Positions 1-44,317 of a DNA stretch of 44,317 nucleotides are shown here, piece by piece. Position 1 is the stretch's first letter. Each line of letters starts with the position of its first letter. Below the pieces are notes generated by a model that did not search any database, was not told where the DNA came from, and saw nothing but the letters and a program-made list of their open reading frames with translations. Where the stretch lies: sequence record PX907402.1, one strand, 5' to 3'. The DNA is from a phage. Both the position numbers and the translations under genes were made by a program.

Positions 1-110
1 CACCCCTGTCCCGCTTTTAATTTATGCAATGTTGGTGGGTAAATATGCAGTTTTTATAGGTGCGGTATAGAACGGGACAAAACGGGACGTCCCGCCTGTC
101 CCGCTCCGTT
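1..110. repeat. Right half of composite element copy A: GTCCCGC/GCGGGAC iterons (including palindromic cgggacgtcccgcctgtcccgc) and AT-rich tract ttttaatttatgcaatg; continues from window end
   Basis: Direct reading; shares tgtcccgcctgtcccg, tgtcccgcttt and ttatgca blocks with 16376-16500. Confidence 0.6.
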
Positions 111-432
111 ATGCTGGGTTCTGCCGCGCCATTTCATCCAGCGCAACGCGCTCCATTAGCTTAATATCTTTAAACGCACGCTGCGCGTTTTCGATGCCGT
201 GCATCTTAAATAACCATTCCAGTACGCCGTAGTCGATGCCGTATGCGCCGCCGAATCCGGTGCGCCATTGCGTGGAGCAATCTGTGAAGACTGCGACTAC
301 CTTCGCGTTGTCGGGCCACAGCGCAACGGGCGGACACACGTCTTCAGGTGTCGCGCCCCATAAACTCGCGGCTAAATCTTCGGAGGGTGGCGGCGGGCCA
401 TAAAAGCGCCGCGCCGCCTCAATTAGTTTTTT
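109..432 (-). CDS. Tail assembly chaperone T-like segment, probably expressed only as a fusion to the upstream G-like ORF by -1 frameshift
   Basis: Frame is open from 432 to stop at 109 with no good start; overlaps end of ORF 423..785 at a slippery A AAA AAC; sits between major tail and tape measure genes in circular order. Confidence 0.55.
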   Translation of the reverse strand, partial: KKLIEAARRFYGPPPPSEDLAASLWGATPEDVCPPVALWPDNAKVVAVFTDCSTQWRTGFGGAYGIDYGVLEWLFKMHGIENAQRAFKDIKLMERVALDEMARQNPA

Positions 433-785
433 TCACGCAATCCCATCAGTTCGAGATAGTACGACGTATGGAACACGCCGAACGCGCGCGGGTAGTTGAC
501 CACCAGGCGGCGGACGTTCTCCGCGTTAAATTCGTCCGGCAAATTCCAGCCTTCAGCGACGTGCATGATGGCCTCGACCATAACGTTAAATCCTTCCGGG
601 TCATTGTCGTCATACTCCGACAATTTGCGCTCAGTGTCCTGCATGGTCTGCGAAAATTCGTCGATAGGGCGGTGGCGCACGGTAAACGTCATTTTGCCCG
701 GTTCGTTCTCACCAGGGCGCGGGATCTCAATCGGCAGCTTAAAGGTCGGTTTAGGGTCAAGTGTGAAGAGTGGTGATTTAGCCAT
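423..785 (-). CDS. Tail assembly chaperone (lambda G-like)
   Basis: ATG at 785 after GGAG; acidic ~120 aa protein directly downstream of major tail protein gene; ends REKN* on run of 7 A. Confidence 0.6.
   Translation of the reverse strand: MAKSPLFTLDPKPTFKLPIEIPRPGENEPGKMTFTVRHRPIDEFSQTMQDTERKLSEYDDNDPEGFNVMVEAIMHVAEGWNLPDEFNAENVRRLVVNYPRAFGVFHTSYYLELMGLREKN
426..432 (-). other. Putative -1 programmed ribosomal frameshift slippery heptamer A AAA AAC
   Basis: Minus-strand sequence cgt gAA AAA AAC taa at end of G-like ORF; -1 frame continues open for ~105 codons. Confidence 0.5.
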
Positions 786-801
786 TATATAATTCTCCAA
801 T

Positions 802-824
802 AAAAAAGGGGCCGTACTGGCCCC
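802..824 (-). terminator. Intrinsic terminator after major tail protein gene
   Basis: ggggcc-gtact-ggcccc hairpin followed by T6 on minus strand. Confidence 0.5.
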
Positions 825-854: not shown

Positions 855-1580
855 TTACGACAGCGCCTCGACCAAGTCCTTACGGTAAATAACCATATCG
901 GACTGCATAGTGAGGGTGGACTCCACCGTCTCCACGTTGTTTACTTCAGCCGACGGAATCTTGCGGAAAGACACCTTAGCCGGGTAAATGCGGATTTCAC
1001 CTTTGCCGCTTGCCGCTGCCGGGTTAGTGAACTTAATCACAGTGGTTTTCTGTGTGTCGTCCAGGTCTTCCAGAATCGGGCGGATCGGGTCTTCTTCGTC
1101 GTGGGTGAAAGTGTAGGTCTGGACCAACGGGTTTTTCGTGGTGTTCAGACTGATCGCGGTATTCACCTGCAACGGCTGGAAGGTGGTGGTCTGCTGGTCG
1201 CCACCCGACACGGCAACGTTAGTGATAAACGGGAAGTCGATAAAGCTCGACACCTTCACGACCTCACCCGGTGTGCCTACGCCGAAAGCACCGGTCGGGT
1301 ATTTGGTGGCGTCTTGAGTATCGAAGCGCGCCAGCGTCACGTCGTTCCCGGACACTTTACCCACGATGAACGCGCGGTTCAGCGCACGGACCCACGGGGT
1401 TTTAGTGAACATAACAACGTCGCCAACAACCAGACCGTGAGACTCCGCGCAGGTAATTACGCAACCTTTCGTAAGGTCGGAGATTGACGCCGCGGCGTTG
1501 GTAGCTGCCGTAACCGCGATGCCGCTGCCTAATACGGACCCGATCTGGACGCTGGACCCGTTGGGAAGTTGATAACCCAT
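855..1580 (-). CDS. Major tail (tube) protein
   Basis: 241 aa ORF upstream of chaperone pair, RBS aggag before ATG; position in synteny. Confidence 0.6.
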   Translation of the reverse strand: MGYQLPNGSSVQIGSVLGSGIAVTAATNAAASISDLTKGCVITCAESHGLVVGDVVMFTKTPWVRALNRAFIVGKVSGNDVTLARFDTQDATKYPTGAFGVGTPGEVVKVSSFIDFPFITNVAVSGGDQQTTTFQPLQVNTAISLNTTKNPLVQTYTFTHDEEDPIRPILEDLDDTQKTTVIKFTNPAAASGKGEIRIYPAKVSFRKIPSAEVNNVETVESTLTMQSDMVIYRKDLVEALS

Positions 1581-9313: not shown

Positions 9314-10699
9314 TTAGTAGAAATCTACGGTAGGAACAACGGCGATTGGACGAATCACAGGGAACAAGTGCGCAATAGGGTAGCCCGCGGCATCGTTCAT
9401 GTGGTCCACACCGGCGGTTTTATCCGGCTCGCCTTTCTTCAGGTCGTAAACCTGCTGTTCCAGACATTTCGCTAGTGTAGGGCATTTATCCAGGTTGACA
9501 AAATACTGGCGCACGCCCTTCGAGTTGCACATCATCGTATTCATCGCGATCAATCGGTCTTTCACAGGCGGGTTAACACTGCCATACTCCACCTCGAAGC
9601 CAGCGTCTTCCAGTTGTGCGATATCGGACGACGACGCGTTGACCGTCTTGCGTGATCTGCCGCTGCTATCAGGGTAAACGACAACACGACCGGCAGCACA
9701 ATGATCGGGGTAGCGCTCCTCGATCGCCTCAATCATAGCCGGGGTGTCAAACAGGTCCACAAATTCATCCACCGCGTGAATCTCGTCGCGGAACTCCTTG
9801 TTCTCGGTGACTCGCTGCCGTCTGACGTACACAACCGCCGCCATCTTCGTGACGTTAAAGTCCATACCGATAATCAGCGTGTCGTCCGGCTTCACTTCTT
9901 CGGTGCTGGCGTTCTCCTCGCGGTTGAACATCTTGTACACCGCGCCCGACGTAAGGTTAACAAACAGGCCGTTCAGGTACGCGTCGATCAGGTTAGCCGG
10001 GTACTGACTGCGCAGCGTGTCGATAAAGTCTGCCGGTAAATGGTGGTTGTCCGTGGTCTTCGCCCGGATCAGGCGCTTCTGGCTATCCTTCTCCACCTCG
10101 AAAATTTGGTACATCGCCCGGTAGCCTTCAGGCGTTGACACGATGACGAACTGGCGGACGAAGCCAGCACGCAGACGACCGAGCAATTTGTGATATGCCG
10201 CCAGCGCGACGTCTTGCTTCGTAGTGTCAAACTCGTCGGCAACAATCCACGCGGCGTTGATACCGATCAGGCGGGTATAGTTCTCCATTGACTCACAGAT
10301 AACGCGAGTCCATTTGCCTTTCACCAGCACGTTGTAAATCTTGTCCTGCTTATTGAACTTCCACCGGAAGCCAGCCTCGTCGAATGCCTTCTCCAGTTCC
10401 GGATACATGATTTTAACCAGGAGTGGAATAGTCGGTTCGGTCACGATGCCGTCATAACCAGGGTTAAGTGTCAGAAGCTGGATGACCTTACGTGCGGCAA
10501 CCCATGACTTGCCACCGCCGAAGCCGGAACACAGGCCGAGGATTTTAGTCTTCGTGTCGCGCAGTAGTTCAACCTGGTGCGGCAAGCAATCAGGCTGGTA
10601 AAGGCGGACGGCCTGCGCAACGCGTGTCGGGCGTGGTGGTCGGTTGCGCTTTGCGATCGTGCGCTCCAGTGCGCGGTGTTCTGCCGCATAGTTACGCAT
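9314..10699 (-). CDS. Terminase large subunit
   Basis: Walker A-like GFGGGKSW and Walker B-like IVADEFD; 461 aa; upstream of portal. Confidence 0.85.
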   Translation of the reverse strand: MRNYAAEHRALERTIAKRNRPPRPTRVAQAVRLYQPDCLPHQVELLRDTKTKILGLCSGFGGGKSWVAARKVIQLLTLNPGYDGIVTEPTIPLLVKIMYPELEKAFDEAGFRWKFNKQDKIYNVLVKGKWTRVICESMENYTRLIGINAAWIVADEFDTTKQDVALAAYHKLLGRLRAGFVRQFVIVSTPEGYRAMYQIFEVEKDSQKRLIRAKTTDNHHLPADFIDTLRSQYPANLIDAYLNGLFVNLTSGAVYKMFNREENASTEEVKPDDTLIIGMDFNVTKMAAVVYVRRQRVTENKEFRDEIHAVDEFVDLFDTPAMIEAIEERYPDHCAAGRVVVYPDSSGRSRKTVNASSSDIAQLEDAGFEVEYGSVNPPVKDRLIAMNTMMCNSKGVRQYFVNLDKCPTLAKCLEQQVYDLKKGEPDKTAGVDHMNDAAGYPIAHLFPVIRPIAVVPTVDFY

Positions 10700-11250
10700 T
10701 ATTCACCCTGGCCTTTGCCGGAAGGTTCGACAACTACGTCGCCGTTATCATCTTCGTCGTCATCCAGCGGTACATCGTCGCGGACGCCGTGGTTTGCTTT
10801 AAGCAGGAATGTGGCGAAGCCCGCAGCGATGGTTACGCCGCCAGCTTCCATCAGGAAAGTTTTCTGCAGTTCCATAGCGTCAGCCATCGCCTCGGCGAAC
10901 TCCTCATGCGCACGCGCCCAGCGATACAGGCAAGCTACGCCCACGCCGATTTCAGCGGCAAATCTGCCGAAGGTTGGCATTTTGTTGCGGGGGATTACTT
11001 GCGCAGCGCCTTTATCGGAGTAGTTGACCTGCCAGGCGTCGGCGTCGGCAAAATAGCGGCGAAGCTGGTCGCAGTAGACGGATCGGTAGTCAGTAGGTCG
11101 CCCACATTTGCCGCCTTTACGGCGCTTTCCGTACTCGATTTCAGGTCCTAGATTGGTATGTTCTGTTTGCTCGCCTGGTTTACGGCGCGGGGTTACTGCC
11201 ACTCGTCCGTCCAGTTTGGCGCGTCGGCCCTTAACTTTGATTTCTGCCAT
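10699..11250 (-). CDS. Terminase small subunit (putative)
   Basis: Basic N-terminus, acidic C-terminus, stop overlaps TerL start; start chosen at ATG 11250. Confidence 0.5.
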   Translation of the reverse strand: MAEIKVKGRRAKLDGRVAVTPRRKPGEQTEHTNLGPEIEYGKRRKGGKCGRPTDYRSVYCDQLRRYFADADAWQVNYSDKGAAQVIPRNKMPTFGRFAAEIGVGVACLYRWARAHEEFAEAMADAMELQKTFLMEAGGVTIAAGFATFLLKANHGVRDDVPLDDDEDDNGDVVVEPSGKGQGE

Positions 11251-16322: not shown

Positions 16323-16374
16323 CAGTCTCAGACGAGGGGGGCCACTGACCCCCGTCTAGTCTGAAAGACTGGGG
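16323..16374. repeat. Composite element copy B: conserved GC-rich hairpin
   Basis: 51 of 52 nt identical to 44248-44299; imperfect stem gacgaggggg/cccccgtc plus agtct-gaa-agact. Confidence 0.7.
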
Positions 16375-16375
16375 T

Positions 16376-16500
16376 TTGTCCCGCCTGTCCCGCTCCTCGC
16401 CAGGCCGCGTCATCCGGGGCGGGACAGGGGTGCTGTCCCGCTTTGTCCCGCTCCTTGTTTGTCCCGCTTTTTGTCCCGTTTGTTTTATGCAGTTTTATTG
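16376..16500. repeat. Composite element copy B: GTCCCGC iteron array followed by AT-rich tract
   Basis: At least six TGTCCCGC-like repeats at 10-16 bp spacing plus one inverted GCGGGACA; then ttttatgcagttttattgcataac. Confidence 0.65.
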
Positions 16501-18914: not shown

Positions 18915-19244
18915 TTACTTTGAAGTTTTATTATTGCGTACCCAGGAGCGCACTGTGCTCTGATTAATTCCGGTCAACTCGGCGATCATTGCCCAGGATT
19001 TGCCCTCGGCGCGCAAACGGATAACCTGTTTTTTGTATTCTTCCATTTCTTCATTGTGTTTTTGCAGCTTGCTTGCTGCCGTGCCGTTGAGCAATTCCAG
19101 CTTCGCGGTAAGCTCCTTCTCAGCACGCGATAATCTGGACACTTCAAATAACACAGCCCCCACGGCATCGGTGTATGCCCATGACCGGCTTGTCTCACTG
19201 CAAACAGTCTTCGTTAACATTTCGATTGCGTCGTTTACATTCAT
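18915..19244 (-). CDS. HTH-domain DNA-binding protein (putative transcriptional regulator)
   Basis: C-terminal KSWAMIAELTGINQSTVRSWV helix-turn-helix-like segment; 109 aa. Confidence 0.45.
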   Translation of the reverse strand: MNVNDAIEMLTKTVCSETSRSWAYTDAVGAVLFEVSRLSRAEKELTAKLELLNGTAASKLQKHNEEMEEYKKQVIRLRAEGKSWAMIAELTGINQSTVRSWVRNNKTSK

Positions 19245-19375: not shown

Positions 19376-19409
19376 GCGCCGTCGCATTTTGCCTCGGCGC
19401 TTTTTTTTT
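19376..19409 (+). terminator. Hairpin plus T9 tract (terminator or UP-like A/T element)
   Basis: gcgccg-13 nt loop-cggcgc followed by nine T. Confidence 0.35.
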
Positions 19410-19450: not shown

Positions 19451-19646
19451 TCACCCCGTCGACAGGATGCAGGACGCAAACTGGAGAGGGGCAACGCAGG
19501 GGCCGGATCGAAGTGTCAGGATTCCCAACCGTGATTATATAACCAGGTCCACTACCCGAACGGGAGAACGCGTAACCTGGCAATATGTTAAGGCCACCGA
19601 CGAAGTTAACTGCCGACACCTAAACTTAACCAATCGGAGATATACC

Positions 19647-20075
19647 ATGTTTGAGCAAATCGTAAACCTGATCACTCGCGGCGTAGTAGCACTGGAAACC
19701 ATTGCAAAGCATTATGAAACCGTTGGCGCTGCCGTTGGTAAGCAGGAAGACAAGAAGCCGTCTAAGGCCAAAAAAGAAGTTGTCGAAGATGACGACGACG
19801 ATGCCGAAGACGAAAAACCGGCTAAGGATAAAAAAGCACCGGCGAAAGGCAAAGGTAAGAAAGATGCCGATCCGCTGGCGGAGATGCGCGACGAAATCAA
19901 ACAGTATGCCGCGATTATCGCCGGTGGTGATGACGACGATGCTAACGACGAATTCGACGACCTGCTGGAATCGTTCGAGATCAAATCAATCGCTAAGCTG
20001 GAAGATGACGACGTCGAAGACTTCCACAAAGAGCTAAAAGAAATCGTCGAAACCTATTTCGAACTGGAAGATTAA
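19647..20075 (+). CDS. Highly acidic protein with lysine-rich patch (first early gene)
   Basis: ATG after ggaga RBS; D/E runs (DDDDDAEDE, GGDDDDANDEFDD, EDDDVED). Confidence 0.5.
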   Translation: MFEQIVNLITRGVVALETIAKHYETVGAAVGKQEDKKPSKAKKEVVEDDDDDAEDEKPAKDKKAPAKGKGKKDADPLAEMRDEIKQYAAIIAGGDDDDANDEFDDLLESFEIKSIAKLEDDDVEDFHKELKEIVETYFELED

Positions 20076-28465: not shown

Positions 28466-29157
28466 TTATCTGGTCATTATTTGACGGCAGCGGCTTGATG
28501 ATTGAGCGTGCTGCCGAGATGGGGCATAAGTGTTATTGCTTCAACTACTCCGAAGCCGATCACGGATCATACCTTGACTACCGGATTTATGGTCGCGGAA
28601 TACGCTATCGCAATGAGTTTATCGATCTGGACTTTGTAGATCGCGCGATGAATGGCGATTTCGGTACGCCAGATATCATCTACGCATTCCCGCCGTGTAC
28701 TGATCTGGCGGTGAGCGGTGCGCCAGCTTTCCCGCGCAAACGCGCCCGCGACCCGGCCTTCCAGCTTAAGGCGGTGCGCACCGCGAAGATCGCAGCTTAC
28801 CTGGGTGACTTCTTCGAAGTGCCATATATGATTGAGAATCCGCGCAGTGTGCTTTCCACCCAGTGGCGCAAGCCAGACCACTCGTTCGACCCGTGGGAGT
28901 ATGGGGGATATCTGCCGGAGGATGACGTACACCCGCTCTTCCCGGAATACATCAACGCCCGCGATTCATATCCGAAGCTGACTTGCTTATGGACCGGCAA
29001 CGGCTTCCGTATGCCAGAGAAGAAACCTGTTTTCGTTGAAAAAGGGTACTCGAAGCAGTATAGTCGCCTCGGAGGCAAATCAGCCCGCACAAAATTAATC
29101 CGGTCGCTCACCCCGCGCGGCTTCGCGATAGCGGTCAATGAGGAAAATTTAAAATGA
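28462..29157 (+). CDS. DNA cytosine-C5 methyltransferase-like protein (short, 231 aa)
   Basis: Motif I-like LFDGSG, motif IV-like FPPCTDLAVSGA (Pro-Cys), motif VI-like ENPRSVL. Confidence 0.55.
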   Translation: MIIWSLFDGSGLMIERAAEMGHKCYCFNYSEADHGSYLDYRIYGRGIRYRNEFIDLDFVDRAMNGDFGTPDIIYAFPPCTDLAVSGAPAFPRKRARDPAFQLKAVRTAKIAAYLGDFFEVPYMIENPRSVLSTQWRKPDHSFDPWEYGGYLPEDDVHPLFPEYINARDSYPKLTCLWTGNGFRMPEKKPVFVEKGYSKQYSRLGGKSARTKLIRSLTPRGFAIAVNEENLK

Positions 29158-32420: not shown

Positions 32421-34019
32421 TTATGATTTAGCCTGTGCCGCTACTGCAGCTTTCAGTTCCTCCAGTTCTTTCTGCATATCATCCATCTTATCCATCAGTG
32501 CTAGTATGGCTTCGTGATGTAGCGCGGCGGACACCCCCGCTGTGTCGACGCTCATTACATCTTCAACAACTGTATCATCTTCAAGTGTGACAGGGTTTTT
32601 GTTTACCACTCTAACAGCATCTGGAAAATACTTTTGCACTTCCTGTGCTACAAAACCAAAACCTTTAAGTGGGTTATTTTTGAAGCGCATAGTCCATGAT
32701 ACGCCTCGAATAGAGCGCATCTTAGTTAGCGGGTCCGCTATTCTAACTATATTTTTTTTTACTCTGATGTCGGATGTGTTGACCCAGTTTGCGGCGCTTG
32801 CGGTGCCGTTGTTATTGAATACATAGTCACAATTCATACCCTGACCGCTGTAAACTGACAGTTGGCATGCCGCCATATCCTGACCGGAACCACGTATACC
32901 ACCGATACGCCACGCGCCATCGAACCATCCGCCTTCTAAATAGTTCGCCCAACCTGACGCCGGCGTGTCTGCCGGGTTCCACATCCAGATGTGGTTTCGG
33001 GGAATACCGTCCGGTATTCCAAAAAAGCGTCCGATGTTGCCGAACACATCGAGAGGCCGAACGACAGGCCATAAGTCCGCAACCTTGTTTACGCCAGTAC
33101 CACCAGACTCGACTGCAAGAGGCGTGCTGAAGGTTTGCGCCTGGGACCATGTGTTTGCGCCGTTTAGTGTCGGCACGTTATCCCCAGACGTGCCGACATT
33201 TAGCGTCGCCGCGGACCCCAAGCCTAAGTTACCCCGCGCTGCCGTTGTGTCGGCAACGTCGCTAAGGTTGTTGCCCTTTGCCAGAAATCTAGACGGGTCG
33301 ATCTCATTCTTGAATTGTTCGGCTTCGTTCCGGTATCCCTGCGCGGCAGTGCTGGCGGCTTGCGCGGCAGTGCTGGCGGCTTGCGCGGCAGTGCTGGCGA
33401 CGTTGGCCTCGTCCCTCATAGCGCCGGTGTCAGTCTTGATCTGGTTCGTCTGGTCCTTGATGGTCTGCGTATCCGTCTTAATCTGGTTGGTGGCGTCGCG
33501 AATACTAGCCGTCTCGGTCTTGAAGCCTTCGGCCTCATTGCGAAACCCTTGCGCGGCTGCTTCCGATGCGGCGGTTTGTTGTTGCAGGTTGCGCATTTCA
33601 ACTGGGTCAACTTGCTTCATCAATTGCGACAGGTAACCCCAGGACATACCCTGCATAACTTGCCCGTTCGGTAGCGTTACCGTGATTTCTTCTTCGTCTC
33701 CGAAGATTGCGCGCCAGTTGTTTTCGTCCGCGATCATCAAGCGCAACGCTTTCTGCGCTTGGACGGTTACGCCCATCGTTGCCAGTGACATGGTATCGCG
33801 CTTAACGCCATCCCACGCAAGGCCGGTTGCCGTTGGGCCGTCGAACGGCAGAACCAGAGTGAGCGACGTGTCGCTTTCAACGGACGCGATTGCCACGGTG
33901 TAGGGGACTTGTCCTACAACCAGCGTTAAGAAGTCGCCTGCGTTAAACGCGGTAAACGTCGTGCCGACCCCGACAACCGCCTTGCTGTTATTCGTTACGG
34001 ATAGAGTACCCGCTGCCAT
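32421..34019 (-). CDS. Tail fibre protein with C-terminal intramolecular chaperone (peptidase S74-like) domain
   Basis: C-terminal SDIRVKKNIVRIADP...VDTAGVSAALHHEAILALMDKMDDMQKELEELK resembles the auto-cleaving chaperone of phage fibres/endosialidases; internal (STAAQAA)x3 repeat. Confidence 0.75.
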   Translation of the reverse strand: MAAGTLSVTNNSKAVVGVGTTFTAFNAGDFLTLVVGQVPYTVAIASVESDTSLTLVLPFDGPTATGLAWDGVKRDTMSLATMGVTVQAQKALRLMIADENNWRAIFGDEEEITVTLPNGQVMQGMSWGYLSQLMKQVDPVEMRNLQQQTAASEAAAQGFRNEAEGFKTETASIRDATNQIKTDTQTIKDQTNQIKTDTGAMRDEANVASTAAQAASTAAQAASTAAQGYRNEAEQFKNEIDPSRFLAKGNNLSDVADTTAARGNLGLGSAATLNVGTSGDNVPTLNGANTWSQAQTFSTPLAVESGGTGVNKVADLWPVVRPLDVFGNIGRFFGIPDGIPRNHIWMWNPADTPASGWANYLEGGWFDGAWRIGGIRGSGQDMAACQLSVYSGQGMNCDYVFNNNGTASAANWVNTSDIRVKKNIVRIADPLTKMRSIRGVSWTMRFKNNPLKGFGFVAQEVQKYFPDAVRVVNKNPVTLEDDTVVEDVMSVDTAGVSAALHHEAILALMDKMDDMQKELEELKAAVAAQAKS

Positions 34020-41536: not shown

Positions 41537-44179
41537 TCATCGTTTGTAAAGTACACCACCCGGTTTCGTCGCCTTCACGATCTCGGACTTCACCGCCTCG
41601 GTGATTTGCTTGCCGAACGCCTGCGCGGTACGGGGGTCCGGCCCGCTGACACTGGTATCCGTTTTACCGGTCCCCGTGTAAACGTTAGTCGTCACGACCA
41701 TACCACCGCCTGCGCCAGACGCAGCAACGCCCAGTTTACCGTCAGGCCCGCGCTTCAGTGGCATGATGGCCTCGGGGCCAGCCTCGCCCATCAATCCCGC
41801 GCCCTTAGCGAACGCCTGGACGCCATAACTGAAAAAGGTAGGCTGGCTTACCACTTTCCCCGAATAGGCCGCGAGATTGCCTCCTGCGTACGCTCCGCCG
41901 TCCGCATTCTTAGTCAGGCCCGAGAAGATAGCGCCGAACAATCCGTTTTTGCCGCCGTCACCACCGAAAGCGCTAACGATAGACTTGAAAGCCTGCGAGG
42001 TAGCCAGCTTGATTAACTCGCTCAGGATGGACTTAACCATATCCTTTGCGTTCAGCTTGCCCGTCTCGAAAAACTCGTTCATCGTGTCTTGCATAGCGCT
42101 GAACGTGAATTTTGTGAGCGACGTCATCTGCGTATATCCGTTACCCATATCATCCACACTATCCTTAAGCCCGCGGCTGAAGCCATCCCATAGCGAGGCG
42201 TTAGCACCGGTCTGTGCTTCCTGCACTTCACGCAGCTTAGACACCGCCTTGTCTATATCGGTATCGTTAGCGCCAACCCGCTTCAGGCGGTCAATTAGCT
42301 GCAATTCTTCACGCAGGTTTGCCGCTTCGCGAGTGGAAAGCGCATAGCCCGCGGCGGTGGCTTTTAGTTCGGCGTTCTGGTTCTTAACGAAGGCATCGAT
42401 CTGCGCGTGCGCCTTAACCTGCTTCTCTTTCGCGTCCAGTAGTTTGGCTTCTTCGACGATCTGCTCGCGCACTTCCTTCACGCGTCCGAATTCGACCATC
42501 TGCTGCTTCTCTGCTGCCGTTAGCGCCCTTTGTTTGCTCGCGGCGATTAACTGCTCATTGTCGGCAATCAGCTTGTTTAAGGCCGCTTGAGCGCGTTGCG
42601 TGCGGGTCTGCGTAGACGCGTTGGCTTCGATCTGCTTGCCGGATTCTCGAAGCTGGGCCAGTTCGCTCCGTGCGACTTCCAGCATTTTCATACCGGCATC
42701 CACGCGAACAGCCGCGGCCTTCTTCGGGGCGGGGTCTTTGTAGCGCTCGTTTACCTGCTTCACCGCCTCCGCAAGCTCTTTCTCGTCAATAACGCCGCGC
42801 TTATTCAGCAAATTGAGGCGGGCGATCTCGTCTGCACGCTTTTTCGCGTTGGTTGCGTACTCCTTCTCGAACGCAGCGCGGTCGCGGGCGGTGCGGTTAG
42901 CCTCCTCGTTCGCCTTTGCGGATTCGTCTGCGGCGCGGGCGTTGTCTCGCTCCGCACGGTTACGCAGGGTGAGCGACGCCACCACTTTTTCCTGGGCGAC
43001 CAGTTCGCTGTAAAGCATGTTAATACGCGCTTTCTGCGCTTCGGTCATAACTCCACCGGCAGCGTTTACCGCTTTCATCTCGGCATAGTAAGCCGTGGTC
43101 ATGCGCTGCAATGATTCACGCGCTTTCATCTCGGACTCATTCGAGGACTGCGCGCGGCCCACATCCAGGATGGCATCCCACATCGATTTAGCTGCCGATG
43201 TGACGACGTTCATCGACCGCTCAAGCGTGCCCATGTTTGACTTGATCTCATTGGTCATGCTGGTGAACGACGCAGCGGCGGTTTTGTTAGCCAACGCAAC
43301 TGCGTCTGTCTCACGACCCGCATCAACCAGCGACTGCACCTGCTGGATCTGCGCTTCGTTTACGACGTGATACTTATCCGCCAGTGCGCGCAAGCCGCCC
43401 ACGGGGTCAGTGGAGAGCTTCGCCACCGCCGCCACCACATCCTCGATCGGCTGGCTGGACACCTTCGCAAAGTCATTAACTACCTTAGCCAATGCGCCGA
43501 AGTCACCACCCGCTTTCACCCCCGCCGCCGCCAGCGCCTGGATTGTGTCACGCGTCTTGCGAAATGACCCGCCCATGCGCTCGGCGTTCTCGGACAGCAC
43601 CAGGATCTGGTTAGCGGTGAGGCCAGAGATATTACCAGACAGCGCCAGCGTCTTATTAAGCGCTGCGACCTGGTTCTCTGCTCGGGACGTAATTGCCACC
43701 CCTACGCCGAGCGTTGCCGTTAATGCAGCGATGCCGATCCCTAACGGGCCGAGTGTGCCAACGACATAACGCAGCGTGTTTCCCAGTCCGCCAAACGCCC
43801 CAGTAAGCTGCGGTAACTGCTGAAGCATAACGCGGTGCACCGGCATACCCATCTCAAGCGTAACCGCGATATCCTGTAACTGGAATGCGGCGTTCCGCGA
43901 TGCGAATCCCAGGTTTTTGGTCGACATGCCTAATCGGCTGGCGAGTCGCTCCTGTTTCGTCATGCCGTCGGCGGCGCGCTGCGATTCAGTCGCTAACTTT
44001 TCCATTCCGCCAGCAGCGTCGCCAGTAACCTTTTTCGACTTGCCAAGTGTGTCGTTTAATTTTTTTACTTTCTGTTCTGTGTTCTCGGATTTCTGCGCAA
44101 ATGTGTCCAGCACAGTATTAGCCGTTTTAATTTGCGCGACGTCCGCCTTGAGCGTGATGCCCGCTGCTTGATCTGCCAT
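41537..44179 (-). CDS. Tail tape measure protein
   Basis: 880 aa, A/K/E-rich coiled-coil, Gly-rich C-terminal segment; between chaperones and tail tip genes. Confidence 0.85.
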   Translation of the reverse strand: MADQAAGITLKADVAQIKTANTVLDTFAQKSENTEQKVKKLNDTLGKSKKVTGDAAGGMEKLATESQRAADGMTKQERLASRLGMSTKNLGFASRNAAFQLQDIAVTLEMGMPVHRVMLQQLPQLTGAFGGLGNTLRYVVGTLGPLGIGIAALTATLGVGVAITSRAENQVAALNKTLALSGNISGLTANQILVLSENAERMGGSFRKTRDTIQALAAAGVKAGGDFGALAKVVNDFAKVSSQPIEDVVAAVAKLSTDPVGGLRALADKYHVVNEAQIQQVQSLVDAGRETDAVALANKTAAASFTSMTNEIKSNMGTLERSMNVVTSAAKSMWDAILDVGRAQSSNESEMKARESLQRMTTAYYAEMKAVNAAGGVMTEAQKARINMLYSELVAQEKVVASLTLRNRAERDNARAADESAKANEEANRTARDRAAFEKEYATNAKKRADEIARLNLLNKRGVIDEKELAEAVKQVNERYKDPAPKKAAAVRVDAGMKMLEVARSELAQLRESGKQIEANASTQTRTQRAQAALNKLIADNEQLIAASKQRALTAAEKQQMVEFGRVKEVREQIVEEAKLLDAKEKQVKAHAQIDAFVKNQNAELKATAAGYALSTREAANLREELQLIDRLKRVGANDTDIDKAVSKLREVQEAQTGANASLWDGFSRGLKDSVDDMGNGYTQMTSLTKFTFSAMQDTMNEFFETGKLNAKDMVKSILSELIKLATSQAFKSIVSAFGGDGGKNGLFGAIFSGLTKNADGGAYAGGNLAAYSGKVVSQPTFFSYGVQAFAKGAGLMGEAGPEAIMPLKRGPDGKLGVAASGAGGGMVVTTNVYTGTGKTDTSVSGPDPRTAQAFGKQITEAVKSEIVKATKPGGVLYKR

Positions 44180-44247
44180 TATGCAGTCCCCCTTTTTATG
44201 CAGTTGCCGTCGGTCATTGTATCAGCGAATTTAAAACAAACCTTATT

Positions 44248-44299
44248 CAGTCTCAGACGAGGGGGGCCATTGACCCCCGTCTAGTCTGAAAGACTGGGG
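44248..44299. repeat. Composite element copy A: conserved GC-rich hairpin
   Basis: 51 of 52 nt identical to 16323-16374. Confidence 0.7.
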
Positions 44300-44317
44300 A
44301 TTGTCCCGCCTGTCCCG
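44300..44317. repeat. Start of copy A iteron array (ttgtcccgcctgtcccg), continues at window start
   Basis: Identical to 16376-16393. Confidence 0.6.

What the first reader, a model, noticed from the sequence alone, without database searches (positions are those of the whole stretch)
423..432. Programmed -1 frameshift site (A AAA AAC) joining the G-like and T-like tail chaperone ORFs
The G-like ORF ends ...cgt gAA AAA AAC taa on the minus strand. The -1 frame is open from 432 to 109 but has no credible start codon or RBS. A heptamer of the X XXY YYZ type at the very end of the upstream ORF, in the gene pair between major tail protein and tape measure, is the conserved G/GT arrangement of long-tailed phages. 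It would yield a ~225-aa fusion at low frequency.
Basis: partly seen in the sequence, partly recalled or inferred. Interest (0 to 1): 0.5.

Follow-up and report, generated by a model that had tools for sequence, protein, structure and literature searches.

The report
Phage tail chaperone -1 frameshift site
At the last two codons of a phage tail-assembly chaperone gene, a small share of ribosomes most likely slip back one base and read on to make a longer fusion protein; this is a well-known arrangement of long-tailed phages, but none of the ten database records inspected for this phage genus annotates it.

Summary
On the minus strand the G-like ORF (785..423, Pfam Phage_TAC_4) ends CGT GAA AAA AAC TAA. 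The heptamer A AAA AAC is 432..426. The -1 frame opens exactly at 432, just after a TGA at 435..433, and runs to 109 (DUF1799).

The window is a complete, circularly permuted Dhillonvirus (HK578-like) genome. The pair lies between the major tail protein (855..1580) and the tape measure gene (41537..44179, across the window ends).

The frameshift reading is strongly supported by comparison. All 78 related viral loci, plus T1-like phages (25 clusters at 80% T identity in all), keep an in-phase A AAA AAC or G GGA AAC at the same spot. The 0-frame stop follows directly in 23 of 25 clusters. T-frame residues (LIEAAR) directly after the heptamer change only synonymously. No start codon is conserved.

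The 225-aa fusion aligns end to end (38% identity, E 7e-41) with the joined 'tape measure chaperone' CDS annotated in T1-like phage Stevie, with the junction in the same column. A hairpin (418..389, -22 kcal/mol) begins 7 nt downstream.

Ten Dhillonvirus records were inspected and none annotates the shift. Verdict: an ordinary G/GT programmed -1 frameshift, a new member of a known kind. No experiment confirms it.

The parts
423..785 (-). G-like tail assembly chaperone ORF (ATG 785-783 to TAA 425-423; 120 aa)
   Evidence: The ORF appears. It matches Pfam PF08748 Phage_TAC_4 at E 8.7e-24 over its full length and phrog_569 at 1.2e-40. An SD (GGAG, 798-795) lies 9 nt before the ATG, -6.4 kcal/mol.
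426..432 (-). Slippery heptamer A AAA AAC, in phase with the G frame
   Evidence: Read directly from the sequence. It is conserved as A AAA AAC or G GGA AAC at the same position in all 78 related loci and in T1-like phages.
423..425 (-). 0-frame stop codon TAA directly after the heptamer
   Evidence: Read from the sequence. A stop is adjacent in 23 of 25 clusters: TGA in 19, TAA in 4, TCA in 2.
433..435 (-). TGA in the -1 frame that closes that frame just upstream, so only the heptamer can give access to T
109..426 (-). T-like segment read in the -1 frame (CTA 426-424 to TAA 111-109; 105 aa). The fusion is complement(join(426..785, 109..426)), 225 aa
   Evidence: Translated. It matches Pfam PF08809 DUF1799 at E 3e-21 and phrog_680 at 3e-31. 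phrog_17368, a 213-position profile, matches G at positions 1-107 and T at 147-212.
389..418 (-). Predicted RNA hairpin 7 nt 3' of the heptamer (GGCGGCG.CGG.C / G.CCCGCCGCC); candidate frameshift stimulator
   Evidence: Predicted energy is -22.1 kcal/mol, z -2.24, with 4 of 200 dinucleotide shuffles folding as well. Against mononucleotide shuffles z is -3.1, 0 of 300. It is more stable than 98% of other 40-nt windows of the locus. Hairpins lie at 6-8 nt spacing in many other lineages.
855..1580 (-). Major tail (tube) protein gene, upstream neighbour
   Evidence: PF08813 Phage_tail_3 at E 1.4e-32 and phrog_584 at 8e-74.
808..824 (-). Terminator-like hairpin plus T-run between the major tail protein gene and G
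   Evidence: Stevie annotates a terminator at the equivalent place.
41537..44179 (-). Tape measure protein gene, the downstream neighbour across the ends of the circularly permuted window
   Evidence: PF06791 TMP_2 at E 9e-43 and Tape_meas_lam_C. The gene order is contiguous in HK578. The circular join was checked.

Best explanation
This is the programmed -1 ribosomal frameshift site of a G/GT-type pair of tail assembly chaperones in a Dhillonvirus (HK578-like siphovirus).

Most ribosomes translating the chaperone gene decode ...GAA AAA AAC and stop at the adjacent TAA, giving the 120-aa G-like protein. A minority slip back one base on A AAA AAC, with tRNA-Lys moving AAA to AAA and tRNA-Asn moving AAC to AAA. 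They then read CUA AUU GAG... in the -1 frame for 105 more codons. The product is a 225-aa fusion of the Phage_TAC_4 and DUF1799 domains.

The hairpin 7 nt downstream (418..389), and possibly the adjacent stop codon, probably raise the slippage rate.

By analogy with lambda gpG/gpGT, the G part would coat the tape measure protein and the T part would recruit the major tail protein, in a fixed low GT:G ratio.

What is shown: the ORF anatomy, the domain families, the synteny, and the conservation of the heptamer and of T-frame coding. What is inferred: that shifting occurs, its efficiency (expected to be a few percent), the role of the hairpin and the stop, and the protein functions.
For: (1) Anatomy. 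The heptamer is in phase and occupies the only possible position in a 10-nt overlap.

(2) Families and synteny. The order is major tail protein, Phage_TAC_4, DUF1799, tape measure protein.

(3) Conservation of the heptamer. All 78 IMG/VR loci with a T homologue (31-100% identity) carry A AAA AAC (61 loci) or G GGA AAC (17 loci) in phase at the end of G, with T in the -1 frame. With T1-like phages added they form 25 clusters at 80% T identity.

(4) The X base is kept although eight different 0-frame codons supply it: GAA, CGA, GCA, AGA, ACA, CAA and GTA, plus CTG for the G GGA AAC form.

(5) T-frame residues LIEAAR directly after the heptamer are invariant in 21 clusters, with 2-4 synonymous codons at each position.

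(6) Within Dhillonvirus, the variable columns between the heptamer and the first GTG number 6, 1 and 15 at T-frame codon positions 1, 2 and 3.

(7) No start codon is conserved. The second T codon is ATH, AAA or AGA in different clades, and GTG339 is an Ile codon in one Dhillonvirus. The SD is weak or misplaced.

(8) The 225-aa fusion aligns end to end with the joined (j2) 'tape measure chaperone' CDS of phage Stevie. Identity is 38%, E is 7e-41, and the junction falls in the same column. The Stevie paper states a 'conserved translational frameshift' (PMC4319613).

(9) A hairpin lies at canonical spacing. T1-like phages have a hairpin of different sequence at the same place, with z about -4.

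Against: There is no experimental evidence (protein, reporter or ribosome profiling) for this phage or genus.

In E. coli A_AAA_AAC is much less shift-prone than A_AAA_AAG (PMC5009743), so efficiency may be low.

No SD-like upstream stimulator is evident in the window: -4.0 kcal/mol, 33rd percentile.

Hairpin support is uneven across lineages. Only 7 of 25 clusters reach p <= 0.05 after composition-matched shuffling, and part of the stability reflects local GC-richness. No compensatory changes were demonstrated.

A GTG at 339 and an ATT at 423 exist, so some independent initiation cannot be excluded.
Confidence: 0.9

Rival explanations
1. T is an independent gene. It would start at ATT 423-421, overlapping the G stop (as in the HK578 record), possibly by termination-reinitiation, or at GTG 339. 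The heptamer would then be incidental.
For: HK578 gp16 is annotated from that ATT. The ORF listing finds a 76-aa GTG ORF at 109..339. Several records call small ORFs here.
Against: Neither start is conserved. The second T codon is ATC, ATT or ATA, but AAA in T1-like phages and AGA in the G GGA AAC clade. GTG339 is an Ile codon in one Dhillonvirus. The best anti-SD pairing comes from G-runs about 17-20 nt upstream. Starting at GTG339 would remove 7 residues of the DUF1799 match (residues 25-101) and the conserved LIEAAR segment, which shows synonymous-only variation. This reading does not explain why the heptamer is kept through eight different preceding codons and two slippery forms.
Confidence: 0.05
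2. The fusion is made by transcriptional slippage. RNA polymerase would add one A in the A7 run (433..427), and standard translation of the A8 mRNA would give ...REKK-LIEAAR...
For: There is a homopolymer of 7 A. Slippage at A/T runs is known in bacteria and IS elements (PMC5009743).
Against: The productive bacterial cases described there involve runs of 9 A or T. Across the clusters the run here is 7 in twelve, 6 in twelve, and only 3 in the G GGA AAC cluster. What is conserved is therefore the X XXY YYZ pattern in phase, not homopolymer length. A hairpin 7 nt downstream suits ribosomal shifting.
Confidence: 0.04
3. There is no recoding. The -1 ORF is a non-functional remnant or chance open frame, and only G is made.
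For: Several Dhillonvirus records leave the region unannotated.
Against: DUF1799 matches at E 3e-21. Variable columns in the T ORF number 21, 8 and 68 by codon position within the genus. Homologues at 31-49% identity exist in many viral contigs and in more than 1000 phage records.
Confidence: 0.01

Closest known systems
Tape measure chaperone pair of T1-like phages (Drexlerviridae), e.g. Citrobacter phage Stevie CPT_Stevie15/16, annotated with a conserved translational frameshift
   Same: The proteins are homologous: the fusions share 38% identity at E 7e-41, with the junction in the same alignment column. The heptamer plus stop is identical (GTA AAA AAC TAA) and T is in the -1 frame. A hairpin lies 6 nt downstream. 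The synteny is the same, and a terminator follows the major tail protein gene.
   Different: It is a different genus with about 60% sequence divergence. The hairpin sequence is unrelated. In Dhillonvirus a gap of about 250-400 nt full of repeats separates T from the tape measure gene, against 37 nt in Stevie. None of the 10 Dhillonvirus records inspected annotates the shift.
Bacteriophage lambda gpG/gpGT (Levin, Hendrix & Casjens 1993; Xu, Hendrix & Duda 2004, 2013, 2014), as summarised in PMC5009743
   Same: The gene position is the same, between the major tail protein and the tape measure protein. Both have a -1 shift near the 3' end of G at an X XXY YYZ heptamer. The expected product is a low-abundance fusion that is absent from virions.
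   Different: No lambda-type chaperone family was detected; the only Pfam hits are Phage_TAC_4 and DUF1799. From my own recollection, not checked here, lambda gpT belongs to the Pfam family Phage_tail_T and lambda's heptamer is G GGA AAG. Here the 0-frame stop is directly adjacent to the heptamer.
g-t frameshift of haloarchaeal tailed viruses HCTV-1, -2 and -5
   Same: They use G_GGA_AAC and A_AAA_AAC, the same two heptamers found in this family (PMC5009743).
   Different: The hosts are archaeal. No sequence relationship was tested.
E. coli dnaX and IS-element -1 frameshift cassettes (A AAA AAG with 5' SD-like and 3' hairpin stimulators; IS1 A AAA AAC from my own recollection)
   Same: An A-rich heptamer is decoded by tRNA-Lys, with a 3' hairpin at 6-8 nt (PMC5009743).
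   Different: The last codon is AAC, not AAG, and that form is less shifty in E. coli. No SD-like 5' element is present in the window. The function is unrelated.

Membership tests
G/GT-type tail assembly chaperone frameshift of long-tailed phages (Xu, Hendrix & Duda 2004) | The gene pair lies between the major tail protein gene and the tape measure protein gene | tested here: met
   The major tail protein is at 855..1580 and the tape measure protein at 41537..44179, across the ends of the permuted window. The order is contiguous in HK578.
G/GT-type tail assembly chaperone frameshift of long-tailed phages (Xu, Hendrix & Duda 2004) | The downstream ORF overlaps the end of the upstream ORF in another frame and lacks its own conserved initiation signals | tested here: met
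   The -1 frame opens at 432. Only ATT423 and GTG339 are available, with a weak or misplaced SD, and neither is conserved.
G/GT-type tail assembly chaperone frameshift of long-tailed phages (Xu, Hendrix & Duda 2004) | An in-phase slippery sequence lies within the overlap | tested here: met
   A AAA AAC at 432..426.
G/GT-type tail assembly chaperone frameshift of long-tailed phages (Xu, Hendrix & Duda 2004) | The arrangement is conserved among divergent relatives | tested here: met
   It holds in 25 of 25 clusters, with two alternative heptamers. The T frame is under purifying selection from the codon after the heptamer.
G/GT-type tail assembly chaperone frameshift of long-tailed phages (Xu, Hendrix & Duda 2004) | A fusion protein is made at a low fixed ratio to G and is required for tail assembly | not testable with these tools
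   This needs mass spectrometry, a western blot, a reporter or genetics.
G/GT-type tail assembly chaperone frameshift of long-tailed phages (Xu, Hendrix & Duda 2004) | G binds the tape measure protein and T binds the major tail protein | not testable with these tools
   Inferred only, by analogy with lambda (PMC5009743).
Pfam Phage_TAC_4 (PF08748) tail assembly chaperones | Full-length match above the gathering score | tested here: met
   84.5 bits against a cut-off of 21.1; residues 1-120 match profile positions 1-124.
Lambda gpG/gpT sequence families | Detectable sequence similarity to lambda-type chaperone families | tested here: not met
   The Pfam scan returned only Phage_TAC_4 and DUF1799. 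NCBIfam returned nothing. The site therefore works like lambda G/GT but is not a member of lambda's protein families at the sequence level.
T1-like tape measure chaperone G/GT pair (Stevie) | Homology over both parts, with the same junction and heptamer | tested here: met
   BLASTP gives 38% identity at E 7e-41 over residues 1-223. KN|L falls in the same column, and A AAA AAC TAA is present in both.
dnaX-type stimulated -1 frameshift cassette | An SD-like element about 10 nt 5' of the shift site | tested here: not met
   In the window the value is -4.0 kcal/mol, the 33rd percentile of control windows. Across lineages there is only a weak trend: 7 of 25 clusters at or below the 10th percentile.
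dnaX-type stimulated -1 frameshift cassette | A stable 3' stem-loop 5-9 nt after the shift site | tested here: met
   Hairpin 418..389, spacer 7 nt, -22.1 kcal/mol, z -2.2 to -3.1. Its stimulatory role is inferred; no covariation was shown.

The most novel reading that the evidence does not exclude
In this Phage_TAC_4/DUF1799 family the shift site is a fixed three-part cassette: the heptamer, an immediately adjacent 0-frame stop codon, and a hairpin 6-8 nt on. The stop is kept in 23 of 25 clusters, even where the overlapping T-frame residue changes from Ile to Lys or Arg. If that stop is functional (a 'shifty stop'), frameshifting would compete directly with termination. The GT:G ratio, and hence tail assembly, would then depend on release-factor activity or the host's physiological state, not on a fixed constant.
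Probability: 0.15. Interest if true: 0.4.

Novelty: new member of a known kind. Interest (0 to 1): 0.15.

Why it matters
The main value is for annotation and engineering.

About 160 Dhillonvirus records match this region in the phage collection. In the ten I inspected, the T part is missing, truncated, given an ATT start or split into small ORFs. The two families are often mislabelled 'tail length tape measure protein' (PHROG and RefSeq names).

Recognising the G/GT frameshift gives the correct 225-aa product. It also explains an apparently start-less conserved ORF. And it warns anyone recoding or synthesising these phages, which are used in therapy and defence-system studies, not to disturb the A-run, the adjacent stop or the downstream hairpin.

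It adds no new biology beyond the known G/GT paradigm.

Tried and rejected
1. SD-like 5' stimulator, as in dnaX. Anti-SD duplex energies upstream of the heptamer are unremarkable in the window and only weakly enriched across lineages. Rejected for this phage.

2. Rfam gathering scan of the whole window. No hits, so no curated frameshift element or other RNA family.

3. PDB sequence search with the fusion. No hits at E <= 1. NCBIfam gave no hits either.

4. Motif over-representation. AAAAAAC is, if anything, depleted (3 against 8.4 expected), so a simple count is not evidence.

5. Apparent exceptions L053 and L071. My script anchored on the wrong stop because the T frame happens to stay open further upstream. 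Both carry CGA AAA AAC TGA or AGG AAA AAA AAC TGA at the expected place (context). They are not in-frame fusions.

6. A tblastn row for SSL-2009a and ZCEC10 showed a single piece covering query 1-178 at 70%, which suggested an in-frame G-T fusion. The SSL-2009a sequence shows the normal heptamer, stop and -1 arrangement. I did not establish why the row reads that way, and ZCEC10 was not checked.

7. Covariation test of the hairpin. Not attempted formally, because the 3' arms sit at different offsets in different lineages. Within Dhillonvirus the only changes weaken the upper stem without compensation.

8. Structure prediction and the large protein-database searches. Not run. Pfam, PHROG and homology to Stevie already settle family membership, and the locus translations could not be submitted to the predictor.

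Full report
**What the window is.** The first 1600 bases (minus strand) match 159 phage records at 80-99% identity. The best match is Escherichia phage YD-2008.s at 96%, and HK578 matches at 94%. Nearly all are Dhillonvirus siphoviruses of E. coli and Shigella. The window (44,317 nt) is a complete genome opened inside the tail operon. When its two ends are joined, the sequence is collinear with YD-2008.s and HK578, except for about 148 nt missing at the junction.

On the minus strand the order is: major tail protein (855..1580; Phage_tail_3, E 1.4e-32), G-like ORF (785..423), T-like frame (432..109), a repeat-rich gap, then the tape measure gene (44179..41537; TMP_2, E 9e-43). HK578 shows the same order contiguously, as gp14 to gp17.

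**Checking the observation.** The minus strand reads TTG CGT GAA AAA AAC TAA at 440..423.
- The heptamer A AAA AAC is 432..426 and is in phase.
- The stop is 425..423.
- The -1 frame has TGA at 435..433 and is open from 432 to the stop at 111..109.
- The overlap is therefore 10 nt and allows exactly one in-phase heptamer position, which is occupied.
- The fusion would be 120 + 105 = 225 aa, with junction REKN-LIEAAR under tandem slippage.

The bare motif is not statistically enriched: 3 copies against 8.4 +/- 2.6 expected. By my own phase arithmetic on the ORF coordinates, the other two copies are out of phase with the long ORFs they lie in. Only four in-phase X XXY YYZ heptamers in the genome, in three ORFs, are followed by a -1 frame reaching at least 50 codons beyond the 0-frame stop. 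I take the other three to be ordinary neighbouring genes; one was checked, and its downstream ORF starts at its own ATG at 29154.

**What the two ORFs are.**
- G-like is a full-length Phage_TAC_4 tail assembly chaperone (PF08748, E 8.7e-24).
- The -1 frame carries DUF1799 (PF08809, E 3e-21, residues 25-101 of the 107 codons).
- In PHROGs they match phrog_569 and phrog_680. Both also match phrog_17368, a 213-position profile: G at positions 1-107 and T at 147-212. Fused G-T proteins therefore already exist in phage annotation.
- NCBIfam and the PDB sequence search gave nothing.

**Independent start?** Between 432 and 339 the T frame contains only ATT (423-421) and GTG (339-337) as possible starts. 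Their best anti-SD pairing (-3.1 and -4.7 kcal/mol) comes from G-runs about 17-20 nt upstream. G, the major tail protein, the tape measure protein and other structural genes score -5.4 to -10.7. Starting at GTG339 would cut into the DUF1799 match.

**Comparative evidence.** A scan of IMG/VR with the T translation gave 78 distinct loci at 31-100% identity.
- In every one, T lies in the -1 frame relative to a G-like ORF.
- In every one, an in-phase heptamer sits at the end of that ORF: A AAA AAC in 61 loci and G GGA AAC in 17.
- Two loci that my script flagged as exceptions carry the motif at the expected place (context lines).

Adding T1-like phages gives 25 clusters at 80% T identity.
- The 0-frame codon that supplies base X is GAA, CGA, GCA, AGA, ACA, CAA or GTA, or CTG with the G GGA AAC form. 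The amino acid varies, but the slippery base does not.
- The codon after the heptamer is a stop in 23 of 25 clusters (TGA 19, TAA 4). The other two have TCA, with a stop 3 or 18 nt later.
- The first six T-frame codions after the heptamer encode LIEAAR in 21 clusters, using 2-4 synonymous codons at each position and no replacement.
- Within Dhillonvirus, the 93 nt between the heptamer and GTG339 vary at 6, 1 and 15 columns by T-frame codon position. One lineage has Ile instead of the GTG Val codon.

This region lies beyond the G stop and before any canonical start. It is nevertheless under protein-coding selection in the -1 frame from the very first codon, which is what a frameshift fusion predicts. 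The second T codon is ATH, AAA or AGA in different clades, so no near-cognate start is conserved either.

**Link to an annotated case.** tblastn of the 225-aa fusion finds 1154 phage records. They include the T1-like Drexlerviridae at 30-38% identity, matched in two pieces, that is two frames.
- T1-like IME347 and YSP2 end G with CGC GTA AAA AAC TAA, with T in the -1 frame.
- Citrobacter phage Stevie annotates both the short CDS (10144..10458) and a joined CDS (10144..10775, two pieces) as 'tape measure chaperone'.
- The window's fusion aligns with Stevie's fusion over residues 1-223 (38% identity, E 7e-41). The KN|L junction falls in the same column.

In contrast, I inspected ten Dhillonvirus records feature by feature: HK578, Kenya-K19, Ioannina, EE09, rolling, SSL-2009a, bob, EP23, Opt212 and YD-2008.s by name. 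None has a joined CDS. The T part is given an ATT start, truncated, fragmented or absent. Full-text searches for Dhillonvirus plus frameshift, and for HK578 plus tail assembly chaperone, found nothing relevant.

[quoted passage not shown] In E. coli A_AAA_AAC is clearly less shifty than A_AAA_AAG (PMC5009743). That fits a low-level event such as lambda's roughly 30:1 G:GT ratio, or the 6-7% measured for an HK97-like chaperone cluster (PMC3711429).

A hairpin is predicted 7 nt after the heptamer (418..389, -22.1 kcal/mol).
- Against dinucleotide shuffles z is -2.24, with 4 of 200 folding as well.
- Against mononucleotide shuffles z is -3.1, with 0 of 300.
- It is more stable than 98% of other 40-nt windows of the locus.
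- Across the 25 clusters, the equivalent 40 nt fall at or below the 10th percentile in 15.
- After composition-matched shuffling, 7 of 25 reach p <= 0.05, with mean z -1.0 and t-test p 0.003.
- T1-like phages have a hairpin of unrelated sequence at 6-nt spacing, with z about -4.

I regard the hairpin as a probable stimulator in this lineage. I did not show compensatory changes, and part of the signal is local GC-richness.

An SD-like 5' element, as in dnaX, is not supported in the window. Rfam has no match.

**Rivals.**
- Independent initiation is disfavoured, as set out above.
- Transcriptional slippage is disfavoured. The bacterial cases described in the review involve runs of 9 A or T (PMC5009743). 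Here the run is 7 in twelve clusters, 6 in twelve, and only 3 in the G GGA AAC cluster. What is conserved is the phased X XXY YYZ pattern.
- A dead ORF is excluded by the codon-position pattern (21, 8 and 68 variable columns over T) and by the breadth of homologues.

**Verdict.** It is an ordinary G/GT-type programmed -1 frameshift. It is homologous to one already annotated in T1-like phages, and the Dhillonvirus records inspected here do not annotate it. Novelty: a new member of a known kind. Interest is low (0.15), and the value is mainly in correcting annotation.

The only mildly new point is the near-invariant cassette of heptamer, adjacent stop and hairpin across this family. It could mean that shifting competes directly with termination. 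This is untested.

Noticed in passing
window 1..108 and 44180..44317 (minus strand, gap between T and the tape measure gene); window 16340..16480: GCGGGACA(G/A) boxes cluster in two intergenic regions. GCGGGACAGG with up to 1 mismatch occurs 10 times against 3.7 expected. The two regions share a near-identical segment of about 55 nt (gcgggacaggcgggacaa.ccccagtctttcagactagacgggggtca.tggcc) that contains a long imperfect hairpin. They could be regulator binding sites combined with terminator or promoter modules. Phage 'rolling' annotates a repeat_region just after T.
   Followed up: partly
window ends (1 and 44317): The window is opened inside this repeat region. When circularly joined, it lacks about 148 nt that YD-2008.s and HK578 have there. 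Several GenBank Dhillonvirus records also begin or end within about 100 nt of this spot: PNS1, welsh and Sponge. This suggests an assembly break or collapse at the repeats, or a real deletion between boxes.
   Followed up: partly
window 808..824 (-) and about 79..94 (-): A terminator-like hairpin plus T-run lies between the major tail protein gene and G. A palindrome CGGGACGTCCCG followed by TTTT lies just after T, at the place where HK578 annotates a rho-independent terminator. Stevie has terminators at both equivalent places. These would step down transcription along the operon from major tail protein to chaperones to tape measure protein.
   Followed up: no
window 32752..32760 (A9 on the minus strand), inside ORF 32421..34019 (-), 532 aa: A run of nine A (GTA AAA AAA AAT...SDIRVKKNIV...) lies inside the 532-aa ORF. 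I recognise the motif, from recollection and without testing it here, as typical of the start of a C-terminal intramolecular-chaperone (S74-like) domain of tail fibres. Both shifted frames hit a stop within a few codons. Runs of 9 A are the length at which bacterial transcriptional slippage is described (PMC5009743), so truncated forms lacking the C-terminal part might be produced.
   Followed up: no
window 19401..19409: A second run of nine T on the plus strand lies in the gap between the ORFs 18915..19244 (-) and 19467..20075 (+).
   Followed up: no
window 423..785 and 109..432; RefSeq records of HK578, JL1, EK99P-1, EP23 and others: The chaperone families phrog_569, phrog_680 and phrog_17368 are all labelled 'tail length tape measure protein'. 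RefSeq records carry that name on the 120-aa G protein. This is a systematic misnaming that hides the chaperone pair.
   Followed up: partly
whole window: AAAAAAC is depleted: 3 copies against 8.4 +/- 2.6 expected, and all 100 shuffles had at least 3. By my own phase arithmetic on the ORF coordinates, the only copy in phase within a long ORF is the G/GT site. This is consistent with selection against accidental slippery sites.
   Followed up: partly
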